Part shown: one piece after another, positions 4,698-11,986 of the stretch
How the letters are laid out: each line of letters begins with the position of its first letter
Numbering within the stretch: position 1 is the stretch's first letter
Source of the DNA: a virus
Lineage: Duplodnaviria > Heunggongvirae > Uroviricota > Caudoviricetes
DNA length: 14,138 bases
IMG/VR virus record: IMGVR_UViG_2690316152_000014
Reading direction: 5' to 3' (one strand)
The notes under the pieces: model-generated
The model's database searches: none
What the model was told of the DNA's origin: nothing
What the model saw: the letters and a program-made list of their open reading frames with translations, nothing else
Made by a program: the position numbers and the translations under genes

Positions 4698-5051
4698 TTA
4701 TCCATACCAGCGGGATTTAGTGGAACGGCTATCAATATGGGTAAAGGTTTTATATTTGCCTAAGCCATATTGATTAGGATATTTGCTATCTAGATACGCG
4801 TGAACAATATCAGGCGAGACACCTTTCACTACAATATCTGCGGCCTTGCCCGTGATATGAATCGAACGAGAAGCACCACCAACTTTCTTATTGTGTGCCG
4901 GACAACGGTTAGCACTGTTAATAACTACTGGTTTCCCGAAGTGTTCGCGTACATCCTCAAGAATTGCCAGTAATTCCGCGTCTACGGTATCTTGTCCGCA
5001 CTTTCCACATTTGCATTCAAATTCCTTGCGAGAAAAATGTTTGCTTAACAT
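4698..5051 (-). CDS. peptidase M15-family protein (zinc D-Ala-D-Ala carboxypeptidase-like); possible cell-wall hydrolase
   Basis: Motifs SANRCPAHNKKVGGASRSIH, GKAADI and FTHID fit the H...D...H zinc site of M15 peptidases. N-terminal CKCGKC cluster. Start is 1 nt after the stop of the upstream paralog-B gene, with a GGGGG SD. Confidence 0.6.
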   Translation of the reverse strand: MLSKHFSRKEFECKCGKCGQDTVDAELLAILEDVREHFGKPVVINSANRCPAHNKKVGGASRSIHITGKAADIVVKGVSPDIVHAYLDSKYPNQYGLGKYKTFTHIDSRSTKSRWYG

Positions 5052-5052
5052 A

Positions 5053-6090
5053 TTACCCCCTATATGTAATTTTATAGTTGTTGGAGTTTTTACAAAAATC
5101 CATTGCCATTTTTCTAATCTGCGCTTCTTTGGTTATGTCACATGTTTCTGTATATCCGTCTGGGATTAGTTCTTTTGGTGCAGCGTGACTTCCTATGTTA
5201 TGTTTTACGGAATATTCTAGGTCATTGGCAACTTTTCCGTCACCGAAAGTTATATACCACAATAACTTGTGAGATAATCCTGACTCTCTTGATTGTTGTG
5301 TGATTCTCTTTTGTGGGTTTAGGTGATTTGTTATTCCATATTTGATATAATCGCCTACTTGCTGGACATAGAAAACACCTGGTTTACTTTTGTTATACCC
5401 ACTCTTAGAACAGCACGGACAACCATCGTTTTCGTAAACCAAACCATACGCAACAATAGTATCTGATATATGGCCTTTTTCACACTTTAGTTTTAGTTTT
5501 GACATAGCCAAAATTGGGGATTTAGGTCGTTTTATTAATTTGAGTCTCTTTTCTTTGCACCCGTCTTCAATTAATCCCAACCATTCGTCGTCTGTGTGCT
5601 TTCTCTTATTAATTCCTCTCTTAATTGACCCACAATGACGGCACCCAGCATCATTGTTTATGATTCTTGTGATTATCGTTTCGTATGTGGTGTTACAACA
5701 AGTGCATTTATATGATGCCTTTGTATCAAGCCCTTTATATTCTTCCAACAAACCAACTAAAACCATCTCTTTACGTTCTAATACATTGCTTGCTTTGGTG
5801 AGAATGGTTTCTTCGTCTCTATTATTTTTCTTTGGTAGTTTTAAAGAATCTCTATAACATTCAATACAAGCACCTTGTTTCTTAAGGGATTTGAATACTA
5901 TCGTTCTTGATGTGTTGTGTTTTTTGCAAGTTACATAAACGTGTGTATATTGACCTTTCCACGGCATGACGAAGCCATGATAAATCAAACCTAATTCACC
6001 ACATCGTTTAATTGCAATTGTTTCATAGTCGTGCGGAGTTTTTCTTTTGAATCCGGTGTAATCGATATATTCAGCAAATAAAACTTCCAT
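5053..6090 (-). CDS. Cys-rich GIY-YIG-like (T5orf172-like) putative homing endonuclease, paralog B
   Basis: Three Cys-rich modules (KRCG..VTCKKH..CIEC; KCTCC..GCRHCG; LKCEKGH..GCPCC), then GVFYVQQVGDYIKYGIT (GIY-YIG-like) and DGYTET. GGGGGA SD upstream of ATG 6090. Confidence 0.55.
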   Translation of the reverse strand: MEVLFAEYIDYTGFKRKTPHDYETIAIKRCGELGLIYHGFVMPWKGQYTHVYVTCKKHNTSRTIVFKSLKKQGACIECYRDSLKLPKKNNRDEETILTKASNVLERKEMVLVGLLEEYKGLDTKASYKCTCCNTTYETIITRIINNDAGCRHCGSIKRGINKRKHTDDEWLGLIEDGCKEKRLKLIKRPKSPILAMSKLKLKCEKGHISDTIVAYGLVYENDGCPCCSKSGYNKSKPGVFYVQQVGDYIKYGITNHLNPQKRITQQSRESGLSHKLLWYITFGDGKVANDLEYSVKHNIGSHAAPKELIPDGYTETCDITKEAQIRKMAMDFCKNSNNYKITYRG

Positions 6091-10700: not shown

Positions 10701-11567
10701 GGTTAAGTTCTCTTTAAAGCTGGCGTTCGGATCACATGCACCGTTTGAATGTAGATCCATCTGGCGTACTTGTTTACGCACTTTCAGGAATGAATCAACG
10801 TTAATGTTTTCAATTGGTACACTAAGACCATATTTTGTATTTGTCAGATAATGGAAAATCTGATCCACGCCGTTAGTGCTTGCCTCAATAGCATTGGTTT
10901 CAAGGTTACGGATTTTAAGGCCGCAAACGTCTACTGTTACCTGGCTATTCGTTTGCAGAATATCAACACCAGCAGCCAGAGATTTGTCATCACGGCGTAA
11001 AACAATACACATGGTCGCAATACCGTTACCCTTGTAAGCATCGGTCCAGTCTGAGCCTAAATGATGTTTAGCCAGTGACAATGCGGTGTTAGGATTCTTA
11101 CCCGTGCGAAACTCAACTTCTAAAACTTTGCGGTATTCGTCTTTAATGTTGCCCTTATCGAGTACACCATCACGGATCGTCATGTTCTTACCGACCAACA
11201 CATTTTTATTATCGATAAAGAGTGCTTTGTAATGGTCGATTTCACCCTCTGCAACAGAAAAGATTTGCACTAACTTATTGTTTTCTTTCTTAGAAATAGC
11301 TTTGTAAACGCAGTTTGTGCCAGTACGGGTAACACCAAAAAGAACGGGTACTACTGTTTTTGGATCGGTTGATGTTCCTAGTGTCACCGCATTATCTGGG
11401 CTTTGTACTTTAGGCGTTTTTGGCGTAGCAGCTACGGAAGCAATCAAGGTCATTGCACCAGCAGCCATACCGATAGCAACTGCGGTCATAACAGAGAATG
11501 TTGCAGCAGCAGCCATCCCAGCAGATGCACCCGCAATAACCGCACCTACTAATACTTCAATTCCCAT
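7788..11567 (-). CDS. lambda J-like central tail fiber / host specificity protein (1259 aa) with an N-terminal extension resembling the C-terminus of tail assembly protein I
   Basis: Size and position after the K-like gene. C-terminal ~200 aa match my recollection of the lambda J receptor-binding region ([47 protein letters not shown]). N-terminal Gly/Ala-rich hydrophobic segment and VVPVLFG motif resemble the gpI C-terminus. ATG at 11567 overlaps the upstream stop (TAATG). Confidence 0.85.
   Translation of the reverse strand: [1259 protein letters not shown]
8395..8545 (-). repeat. in-frame tandem short repeats inside the J-like gene, encoding (D/N)(A/G)AI(T/N)x-AKI(G/Q/V) units
   Basis: Protein segment [46 protein letters not shown]. 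Matching DNA repeats of GCCGATTTTAGC / CGCGAAGATTCAGGA type were read by eye; coordinates are approximate. Confidence 0.45.
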
Positions 11568-11986
11568 TATTCACCCCCGAATCTATAAACTTGTTCATAG
11601 TCAATGTCTGAAACAGGAACGGTCATCCAGATACCATCTTCGGTAATAAGGCCATAACCGGAATAATGAGGAACTACGGAATAATAATTGCGGTTTCCTA
11701 ACTTGTGAGCGGTAACTAATAAGTCGCCGTCCTGTAAATCATCAGTGACTAATTTGAAATGCTTCTTAATTGGTTGAAGGATGTTTGTATATCCGCTTAA
11801 TTCTTTGCAGACTTTCAAGCCTTCTTCTTTCGTAGAATATTTTTTATAAAGAGAATCATGCAGGTCAGTACCAGCGAGAATATCGATGATCTTACATGCA
11901 ATTAAATTGCAATCATTCTCACCTTGAACGAACTCCTGACCTACTAATGAATTGATATAATCGGTGATAAGCCTAGTTTTTAGCAT
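11567..11986 (-). CDS. tail assembly protein K-like, NlpC/P60-type domain only (139 aa)
   Basis: GENDCNLIACKI resembles the catalytic-Cys motif of NlpC/P60 and of the gpK C-terminal domain; a His lies downstream (PHYSG). No JAMM/MPN HxH motif. Start chosen at ATG 11986 with GGAGG 8 nt upstream; the track's longer ORF (start 12142) overlaps the preceding gene by about 110 nt. Confidence 0.6.
   Translation of the reverse strand: MLKTRLITDYINSLVGQEFVQGENDCNLIACKIIDILAGTDLHDSLYKKYSTKEEGLKVCKELSGYTNILQPIKKHFKLVTDDLQDGDLLVTAHKLGNRNYYSVVPHYSGYGLITEDGIWMTVPVSDIDYEQVYRFGGE

What the first reader, a model, noticed from the sequence alone, without database searches (positions are those of the whole stretch)
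5049..11580. Uniform G5 Shine-Dalgarno and stop/start coupling across minus-strand genes
Upstream of the ATGs at 5051, 6090, 6490, 7213, 7385, 7684, 11567 and 13246 the SD is a run of G (GGGGG, GGGGGG or GGGGTG) rather than AGGAGG. Several junctions reuse terminal Gly codons plus TAA as the next gene's initiation region. Plus-strand genes (701, 1178, 3997) use different or weak signals. This suggests the minus-strand genes, including the endonuclease-like and peptidase genes, form one co-evolved late-expression set, and that the plus-strand genes are regulated differently or have a different origin.
Basis: seen in the sequence. Interest (0 to 1): 0.4.

Follow-up and report, generated by a model that had tools for sequence, protein, structure and literature searches.

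The report
Poly-G ribosome sites in prophage genes
The runs of G in front of the tail-tip and lysis genes of this E. coli-type prophage are real, conserved ribosome-binding sites that pair with the ribosome through G·U wobble; this is an unusual local habit of one phage lineage, but a kind of site already known to work in E. coli.

Summary
Eight minus-strand starts (5051, 6090, 6490, 7213, 7385, 7684, 11567, 13246) carry GGGGG, GGGGGG or GGGGTG 4-7 nt before the ATG. That is 7 matches to GGGGG-N3-8-ATG against 1.4 expected, and GGGGG occurs in only 73 of 4566 E. coli SD regions (published figure).

The window is the recombinase, lysis and tail-tip end of a ~38 kb, 40% GC siphovirus-like prophage. 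In E. coli E275a a ~90% identical relative lies inside hicB.

The G-runs are strong Shine-Dalgarno sites that use a G·U wobble (duplex dG -8.4 to -14.5 kcal/mol). They are conserved in about 30 E. coli relatives and one Salmonella relative. More distant relatives have AAGGAG or GAGG at the same junctions. Three junctions place the SD in terminal Gly codons followed by TAA. Two SDs sit in hairpins.

- G-run SDs also occur on plus-strand genes.
- Two late genes use GGAG or GGAGGT.
- GC3 does not separate the strands.
- The endonuclease-like gene is a recent insertion, present in 2 of 32 related loci.

Poly-G SDs are already documented (lambda S; Kuo et al. 2020). The finding is ordinary in kind and a mildly interesting lineage-specific habit.

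The parts
5056..5060 (-). GGGGG Shine-Dalgarno site of the M15 endolysin gene (ATG 5051). It overlaps the last codons AGG GGG and precedes the TAA (5053-5055) of the 345-aa gene.
   Evidence: Duplex dG -10.7. GGGGGTAAT-ATG is kept in 26 of 26 relatives, even where the upstream gene differs.
6095..6099 (-). GGGGG SD of the inserted 345-aa endonuclease-like gene (ATG 6090), directly after the U-tract of hairpin 6108-6129.
   Evidence: dG -8.4. The E275a orthologue has GGAGG.
6494..6522 (-). Hairpin AUACCCUCAUAG/UUAUGGGGGGUAU. Its 3' arm is the GGGGGG SD (6497-6502) of the 115-aa gene (ATG 6490).
   Evidence: Fold dG -14, z -2.4. Kept in relatives. The Salmonella relative has GAGGG, which gives a perfect Watson-Crick stem, and one E. 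coli relative has GGAGG.
7218..7223 (-). GGGGGG SD of the 227-aa gene (ATG 7213). It equals the Gly-Gly codons that precede the TAA (7215-7217) of the 56-aa gene.
   Evidence: dG -12.3. G5 or more in 24 of 24 relatives.
7391..7396 (-). GGGGTG SD of the 56-aa membrane-protein gene (ATG 7385), after the stops TAATAATAA.
   Evidence: dG -12.5. Kept in 26 of 26 relatives.
7689..7693 (-). GGGGG SD of the 92-aa gene (ATG 7684; the protein has an N-terminal hydrophobic stretch followed by coiled coil), downstream of terminator-like hairpin 7736-7769.
   Evidence: dG -8.6. Kept in 26 of 26 relatives, while the A/T-rich bases 5' of the G-run vary among them.
11574..11578 (-). GGGGG(TGA) SD of the tail-tip gene (ATG 11567), lying in codons GGG GGT GAA TAA of the DUF6950 gene. 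The stop and start overlap as TAATG.
   Evidence: dG -14.5. Kept in 31 of 31 relatives and in Salmonella L039.
13249..13294 (-). Perfect 15-bp hairpin AAAAGCCCCCAUAGU / ACUAUGGGGGCUUUU with a 16-nt loop. It starts 2 nt after the tape-measure stop (13297-13299). The 3' arm holds the GGGGG SD (13254-13258) of the Dit gene (ATG 13246), and a U-tract follows.
   Evidence: (dG -26.3, z -6.5). Salmonella L039 has the same architecture with changes on both arms.
4698..5051 (-). Peptidase M15 endolysin gene.
   Evidence: PHROG 894, 1e-44. Pfam Peptidase_M15_3, 1e-29.
5062..6160 (-). 1.1 kb insertion: a terminator-like hairpin plus a 345-aa gene (5053-6090) with a CapR-homology Pfam match, Cys-pair motifs and an endonuclease-family (PHROG 681) match.
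   Evidence: Replaced by 17 nt in most relatives. PHROG 681, 1e-42. GC 0.356.
6143..7684 (-). Four small late genes of 92, 56, 227 and 115 aa (7406-7684, 7215-7385, 6530-7213, 6143-6490). They lie between the tail tip and the endolysin and are probably lysis or accessory genes.
   Evidence: The same order is seen in Salmonella L039.
7788..11567 (-). Tail-tip (central fibre) gene with a lambda J-type C-terminal receptor-binding domain.
   Evidence: Pfam Phage_Tail_Tip and Ig_GpJ_C. PHROG tail-fibre families.
11567..13246 (-). DUF6950 gene (11567-11986, SD GGAGGT), a 217-aa gene (12033-12686, SD GGAG, start overlaps the Dit stop as TAATG) and the distal tail protein gene (12686-13246).
520..655 (+). 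Small plus-strand ORF (530-655, 41 aa) preceded by GGGGTGAGCA. It shows that the G-run signal is not confined to the minus strand.
   Evidence: Kept in 24 of 26 relatives.

Best explanation
The G-runs are the Shine-Dalgarno sites of the distal late genes (tail tip and lysis) of a temperate siphovirus-like prophage.

How they work:
- Each run pairs with the pyrimidine tail of 16S rRNA (3'-AUUCCUCCA-5').
- The central G pairs with the U that an A would normally face, forming a G·U wobble. GGGGG(U) is therefore a slightly weaker but register-tolerant equivalent of GGAGG(U).
- These sites give the late genes strong ribosome binding.

Two kinds of coupling to the upstream gene (inferred):
- At three junctions the SD is written into the last Gly codons of the upstream gene and a TAA lies 0-1 nt from the ATG. 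A terminating ribosome can therefore re-initiate on the next gene.
- At two junctions (tape measure to Dit, and 227-aa to 115-aa gene) the G-run is also the 3' arm of a hairpin. The 5' arm of that hairpin is a C/U tract just after the upstream stop, so translation of the upstream gene should unmask the SD.

The habit is a derived dialect of the E. coli/Salmonella branch of this phage family. It is not a mark of one strand or of separate ancestry.

Shown here: position, spacing, complementarity, conservation and enrichment. Inferred: actual initiation strength, coupling and the role of the hairpins.
For: - Position and excess over chance.
- Predicted pairing with the 16S tail is -8.4 to -14.5 kcal/mol for the G-run sites. 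Plus-strand genes give -5 to -6, and the mean of 41 host genes is -6.2.
- The G-runs are kept in about 190 of 191 junction-by-relative cases, while spacers and upstream sequence vary. This holds even where the upstream gene is replaced.
- GGAGG, GAGGG and GGGGG alternate at orthologous sites: the 345-aa gene in E275a, L029 and Salmonella L039.
- Distant relatives have AAGGAG or GAGG at the same junctions: L033 1 of 25 and L037 0 of 19 with G>=4.
- Hairpins.
- Published experiments. Poly-G SDs give strong initiation in E. coli through G·U wobble in several registers, and GGGGG is rare in native E. coli SDs at 73 of 4566 (PMC7263185). Lambda S uses a GGGGG SD held in a stem-loop (bioRxiv 10.1101/2025.05.14.654169). 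The sequence CCCCTTATTGGGGGTAAGACATG was read directly from lambda.
Against: - No expression or ribosome data exist for this element.
- The relatives are close (85-93% identity) and share ancestry, so conservation of the central G is weak evidence of selection for G over A.
- Spacers of 4 nt are on the short side for E. coli.
- The reason an AT-rich (40% GC) genome holds G rather than A at the centre of so many SDs is not explained.
- The 13249-13294 hairpin could act mainly as a transcription terminator.
- The 6494-6522 fold is only modestly better than shuffles (z -2.4).
Confidence: 0.8

Rival explanations
1. The G-for-A choice is selected to avoid GGA or GGAG in the initiation regions. This would let the late mRNAs escape a factor that targets those motifs, such as CsrA (binds GGA), a RegB-like endoribonuclease (cuts GGAG) or an mRNA interferase toxin. 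The element's relatives sit inside the hicAB toxin-antitoxin locus.
For: - The shift from AAGGAG or GAGG in distant relatives to G-runs at many junctions runs against the AT bias of the genome.
- A relative is integrated in hicB.
Against: - GGAG and GAGG are not depleted on the coding strand of the late block (observed/expected 0.80 and 1.04).
- The SD at 6090 reads GGGGGA and so contains GGA.
- Two late genes keep GGAG or GGAGGT.
- Orthologous sites toggle to GGAGG in some relatives.
Confidence: 0.06
2. The G-runs are primarily stems of transcription terminators or attenuators (G/C-run hairpins followed by U-tracts), and their SD-like position is secondary.
For: - The hairpin at 13249-13294 looks like a terminator. 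The element uses GCCCC/GGGGC stems elsewhere, at 1129-1158 and 2897-2914.
- The SD at 6090 follows a terminator U-tract.
Against: - Only 2 of 8 G-runs lie in a significant hairpin. The folds around 5051, 7213 and 11567 are no better than shuffles.
- All 8 keep SD spacing to an ATG.
- The 16-nt loop at 13249-13294 is outside the usual terminator range, and the terminator scan did not report it.
Confidence: 0.05
3. The near-identical junction words, such as GGGGGTAATATG at both 5051 and 7213, serve as short homologies at gene boundaries. These would promote module exchange and insertion of extra genes, and are kept for that reason.
For: - The 1.1 kb insertion ends exactly at the endolysin SD.
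- The endolysin allele is only about 80% identical to relatives while its neighbours are 92-93%, and homology resumes at the SD.
Against: - One insertion and one allele boundary are anecdotes.
- The 5' edge of the insertion is not at a G-run.
- SD function explains the position and spacing without this idea.
Confidence: 0.05
4. The pattern is a chance or compositional artefact, or a by-product of C-terminal glycine codons.
For: Three of the eight runs lie in coding sequence as Gly codons.
Against: - No shuffle out of 200 reached the observed count.
- Five runs are intergenic.
- In relatives that lack the insertion, the endolysin G-run follows a TAA and is non-coding.
- The genome is 40% GC.
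Confidence: 0.02

Closest known systems
Poly-G ('G-more') Shine-Dalgarno sequences in E. coli (Kuo et al. 2020, Genome Res, PMC7263185)
   Same: A run of G upstream of the start pairs with the CU-rich anti-SD through G·U wobble, works in several registers and gives strong initiation.
   Different: That work used synthetic libraries and noted that poly-G is rare in native E. coli SDs (73 of 4566). Here it is the majority signal of a natural gene block, at 7 of 10 genes.
Lambda S (holin/antiholin) initiation region: GGGGG SD inside the sdi stem-loop
   Same: The word is the same (GGGGGTAAG-AC-ATG in lambda, GGGGGTAAT-ATG here). It lies in a phage lysis or late gene of an E. coli phage. The SD can be held in a hairpin with an upstream C-run (CCCC..GGGG), as at 13249-13294 and 6494-6522.
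   Different: There is no dual-start (Met1/Met3) arrangement here. The hairpin-bound cases here are Dit and a 115-aa gene, not the holin-like genes. In lambda this SD type is the exception (3 of 66 genes with G5).
Translational coupling by overlapping or abutting stop and start codons in phage and bacterial operons (for example TAATG and ATGA junctions)
   Same: A TAA lies 0-1 nt from the next ATG and the SD sits in the last codons of the upstream gene, at 5051, 7213, 11567 and 12686.
   Different: Nothing unusual, apart from the consistent use of Gly codons (GGG/GGT) to spell the SD.
Lambda-like late operons of temperate siphoviruses
   Same: The gene order is tape measure, distal tail, tail tip (J-like), then lysis genes. 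The recombinase lies at the prophage end on the other strand.
   Different: The integrase is a large serine recombinase. The tail-tip module carries Pfam families Phage_phiJL001_Gp84_N, DUF6950 and Phage_Tail_Tip (E275a-type records also annotate DUF2163). GC is 40%. The closest cultured phage has only 36.7% portal identity. Terminator-like hairpins lie inside the block.

Membership tests
Shine-Dalgarno ribosome-binding site (G·U-wobble, poly-G variant) | Stretch complementary to the 3' tail of 16S rRNA | tested here: met
   RNAduplex against GAUCACCUCCUUA gives -8.4 to -14.5 kcal/mol with 5-9 contiguous pairs.
Shine-Dalgarno ribosome-binding site (G·U-wobble, poly-G variant) | Lies a few nt (about 4-9) upstream of the start codon of a real gene | tested here: met
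   Spacers are 4-7 nt at all eight starts. The genes are supported by PHROG or Pfam matches, or by conservation and gene calls in relatives.
Shine-Dalgarno ribosome-binding site (G·U-wobble, poly-G variant) | Conserved relative to surrounding non-coding sequence; interchangeable with canonical SD words at orthologous sites | tested here: met
   The G-run is kept in 24-31 relatives per junction. GGAGG, GAGGG or AAGGAG is found at the same sites in other relatives.
Shine-Dalgarno ribosome-binding site (G·U-wobble, poly-G variant) | Drives translation initiation | not testable with these tools
   Only published evidence for the sequence class is available (PMC7263185; lambda S).
Translational coupling by stop/start overlap | Upstream stop within a few nt of, or overlapping, the downstream start, with the SD inside the upstream ORF | tested here: met
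   5051 (TAA T ATG), 7213 (TAA T ATG), 11567 (TAATG) and 12686 (TAATG). This is not the case at 6090, 6490, 7385, 7684 or 13246, which have intergenic gaps of 20-103 nt.
Translational coupling by stop/start overlap | Downstream translation depends on upstream translation | not testable with these tools
   Needs nonsense-mutant reporter assays.
SD-sequestering stem-loop (lambda S sdi type) | The SD is base-paired in a stable local hairpin | tested here: met
   13249-13294: dG -26.3, z -6.5. 6494-6522: dG -14, z -2.4. Not met at the other six sites.
SD-sequestering stem-loop (lambda S sdi type) | Structure maintained by compensatory change in relatives | tested here: inconclusive
   Salmonella L039 keeps both hairpins with changes on both arms at the tape-measure/Dit site and a G·U to A-U change at the other site. 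Only two divergent lineages are available.
SD-sequestering stem-loop (lambda S sdi type) | Two alternative start codons partitioned by the structure | tested here: not met
   No Met-x-Met dual start at 13246 (ATGTTCAAA) or 6490 (ATGGCTAAA).
Rho-independent terminator (for 13249-13294) | GC-rich stem, short loop and a U-tract directly after the stem | tested here: inconclusive
   The stem and the CUUUUCU tail are present, but the loop is 16 nt and the consensus scan did not list the site.

The most novel reading that the evidence does not exclude
The E. coli/Salmonella branch of this prophage family has undergone a directional, selected switch of its late-gene ribosome-binding sites from AAGGAG or GAGG to poly-G, against its own AT bias. 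One possible driver is that a G-run pairs with any pyrimidine tract. The same five bases could then bind the ribosome in several registers and also form the C/U-tract hairpins that gate translation. A second possible driver is escape from a factor specific for GGA or GGAG. If so, this would be a natural, lineage-wide case of the 'G-more' rule so far shown mainly with synthetic libraries.
Probability: 0.15. Interest if true: 0.4.

Novelty: new member of a known kind. Interest (0 to 1): 0.2.

Why it matters
It matters modestly.
- Gene finders and RBS models trained on AGGAGG-type motifs will score these starts poorly. For example, the 56-aa gene and the 530-655 ORF are not annotated in the RefSeq relative. 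Recognising the dialect improves start calling in this widespread but uncharacterised E. coli/Salmonella prophage family.
- It gives a natural test set for the experimentally derived idea that guanine content, not the canonical motif, sets SD strength.
- It does not reveal a new mechanism. It also does not support using the SD flavour as a marker of strand, module or ancestry.

Tried and rejected
- GGAG or GAGG avoidance: k-mer observed/expected on the late coding strand was 0.80 and 1.04, so there is no depletion.
- Different base composition of the two strand sets: GC3 ranges overlap. Only the two endonuclease-like genes are lowest.
- Known RNA families: no Rfam match at gathering score in the window.
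- Close cultured phage: megablast against phages matched only a uvsW-like stretch and the IS end. The best portal match was 36.7% identity, to phage DCP80.
- Genome-contig scan with the tail-tip protein found no relative. Distant relatives were obtained through the Dit protein instead.
- Local hairpins at 5051, 7213 and 11567 fold no better than shuffles.
- G-quadruplex idea: each junction has a single G-run, so this was not pursued.
- Strand specificity in the complete relative was not significant (p = 0.14).
- Literature on a hicB-integrated serine-recombinase prophage of E. coli: nothing relevant found.

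
Full report
**What the window is**

ORF listing and family searches give the following layout.

| Coordinates | Strand | Feature |
|---|---|---|
| 1178-2860 | + | Large serine recombinase |
| 2860-4698 | mixed | Variable cargo stretch |
| 4698-5051 | - | M15 endolysin |
| 5053-6090 | - | 345-aa endonuclease-like gene |
| 6143-6490 | - | 115-aa gene |
| 6530-7213 | - | 227-aa gene |
| 7215-7385 | - | 56-aa gene |
| 7406-7684 | - | 92-aa gene |
| 7788-11567 | - | J-like tail-tip protein |
| 11567-11986 | - | DUF6950 |
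| 12033-12686 | - | 217-aa gene |
| 12686-13246 | - | Distal tail protein (Dit) |
| 13297 onward | - | C-terminal part of the tape measure |
| 14018-14138 | | IS629-like end that cuts the tape-measure gene |

- Related DNA at about 90% identity occurs in many E. coli chromosomes.
- In strain E275a the element is about 38 kb and lies inside hicB. It carries terminase, portal, a protease-capsid fusion, tail genes and a Rha regulator.
- No cultured phage is close. The best portal match has 36.7% identity.
- GC is about 40%.

**Check of the observation**

- GGGGG-N3-8-ATG occurs 7 times against 1.4 expected. No shuffle out of 200 reached 7, and all 7 matches lie at minus-strand gene starts.
- 7 of the 8 runs of G>=5 on the minus strand between 4698 and 13914 are in this position.
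These are 5051, 7213 and 11567. The other five G-runs are intergenic.

| Gene set | G>=4 in SD zone | GGGGG | Source |
|---|---|---|---|
| Window late genes | 8 of 10 | 7 of 10 | |
| Flanking E. coli host genes | 1 of 41 | 0 of 41 | |
| Lambda | 9 of 66 | 3 of 66 | |
| E. coli genome-wide | not given | 73 of 4566 | PMC7263185, |

The window figure of 7 of 10 with G5 gives p = 3e-11 against the E. coli genome-wide rate.

**What the G-runs are**

- They pair well with the 16S tail. Predicted duplex energies are -8.4 to -14.5 kcal/mol for the G-run sites. The plus-strand genes give -5 to -6, and the mean of the host genes is -6.2. The central G faces the U of CCUCC, forming a G·U wobble.
- Across about 30 IMG/VR and E. 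coli relatives the G-run is kept at every junction, while spacers and upstream sequence vary.
- At the endolysin, GGGGGTAAT-ATG is kept even though most relatives have a different upstream gene.
- At orthologous sites the word toggles among GGGGG, GGAGG and GAGGG. This is as expected if these words are functionally equivalent SDs.

**Published experiments on this sequence class**

- Poly-G SDs drive strong initiation in E. coli through wobble pairing in several registers (PMC7263185).
- Lambda S uses a GGGGG SD held in a stem-loop. The sequence was read directly from lambda.

**Where the habit comes from**

| Relative | Dit identity | SD words at the same junctions | G>=4 |
|---|---|---|---|
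| Salmonella L039 | 67% | G-runs at the Dit, tail-tip and lysis junctions | shared |
| L033 | 56% | AAGGAG, GAGG | 1 of 25 |
| L037 (and L035) | 45-48% | AAGGAG, GAGG | 0 of 19 for L037 |

The G-run dialect is therefore a derived feature of the E. coli/Salmonella branch.

In the complete relative E275a, G-run SDs are found at 13 of 21 late genes and 3 of 14 other genes (p = 0.036). Two of the carriers are plus-strand genes. The strand contrast of 14 of 26 against 2 of 9 is not significant.

**Extra structure at two junctions**

1. Tape measure to Dit.
   - Two nt after the tape-measure stop lies a perfect 15-bp hairpin at 13249-13294 (dG -26.3, z -6.5).
   - Its 3' arm contains the Dit SD and is followed by CUUUUCU-ATG.
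   - Salmonella keeps the same architecture with changes on both arms.
2. 227-aa gene to 115-aa gene.
   - A second hairpin at 6494-6522 pairs ACCCUC with the G6 SD.
   - Salmonella has GAGGG there, which gives a perfect stem.
   - I infer that upstream translation unmasks these SDs. The first hairpin may also act as a partial terminator.

The other six sites show no significant local fold.

- The block is the distal late region and has stronger SDs than the recombinase side. That much is supported.
- The 345-aa endonuclease-like gene belongs to a 1.1 kb insertion (5062-6160) found in only 2 of 32 related loci. The insertion ends exactly at the endolysin SD.
- Two late genes use GGAG or GGAGGT.
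- A plus-strand ORF at 530-655 has GGGGTG.
- GC3 does not separate the strands.
- The recombinase is present in all relatives, although its alleles are more divergent.
- GGAG and GAGG are not depleted, so a motif-avoidance explanation finds no support.

**Verdict**

The feature is real, statistically strong and conserved. Its kind is already known: a wobble poly-G Shine-Dalgarno site with ordinary stop/start coupling. It is a lineage-specific habit rather than a new mechanism, and it does not mark strand or ancestry. Why an AT-rich phage prefers G to A at the centre of its SDs remains unexplained. That question is the only part with some novelty.

Noticed in passing
window 5062-6160: A 1.1 kb insertion carries a terminator-like hairpin (6108-6129) and a 345-aa gene (PHROG endonuclease family 681, CapR-homology Pfam match, Cys-pair motifs, and a C-terminal FYV..G..KYGIT motif that I read as GIY-YIG/T5orf172-like). 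It is present only here and in E. coli E275a among 32 related loci; the others have 17 nt at this place. It looks like a free-standing homing-endonuclease-type gene that landed between the 115-aa gene and the endolysin without disturbing the endolysin SD.
   Followed up: partly
window 2930-4668: A paralogue of that gene (2930-3925; 25% identity, E 4e-15) lies beside a 230-aa N-terminal fragment of a UvsW helicase (3976-4668). The fragment's DNA is 85-89% identical to uvsW of T4-like Krischvirus phages. In the phages Whisky and JK32 a homologue of the endonuclease lies just downstream of the same uvsW stretch. This suggests transfer of a homing endonuclease with flanking uvsW DNA between T4-like phages and this prophage's cargo slot.
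   Followed up: partly
window 2860-4698 and L008, L013, L016: The stretch between the recombinase and the endolysin is a variable cargo slot. Some relatives carry a longer helicase-like region or a GIY-YIG nuclease gene at about 71-72% identity, and others carry almost nothing.
   Followed up: no
window 14018-14138: The end of an IS629/IS3-family element, 95-100% identical to copies in Stx-converting phages, interrupts the tape-measure gene. The prophage copy in this window is therefore probably defective.
   Followed up: no
window 530-655 (+): A small 41-aa ORF with a GGGGTGAGCA-ATG initiation region is conserved in 24 of 26 relatives but is not annotated in the RefSeq relative.
   Followed up: no
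L001 17522-17641 and L002 7648-7956 (E. coli E275a): The related prophage splits hicB, the antitoxin gene of the hicAB toxin-antitoxin pair, and leaves hicA intact next to the 5' fragment of hicB. The effect on HicA control was not examined.
   Followed up: no
window 4664-5061: The endolysin allele is only about 80% identical to relatives whose neighbouring genes are 92-93% identical. This indicates a mosaic exchange whose upstream boundary coincides with the SD.
   Followed up: no
window 7108-7117 and 7238-7242: Further G-runs lie inside coding sequence: GGGGAAGGGG in the 227-aa gene, and GGGGG 25 nt upstream of the 7213 start inside the 56-aa gene. No role was found for them.
   Followed up: partly
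window 1129-1158, 2897-2914, 4670-4693: Terminator-like hairpins lie at gene ends. Two are built from GGGG/CCCC stems (GCCCC..GGGGC and AAGGGGTACGTACCCCTT). Those at 2897-2914 and 4670-4693 look bidirectional between convergent genes.
   Followed up: no
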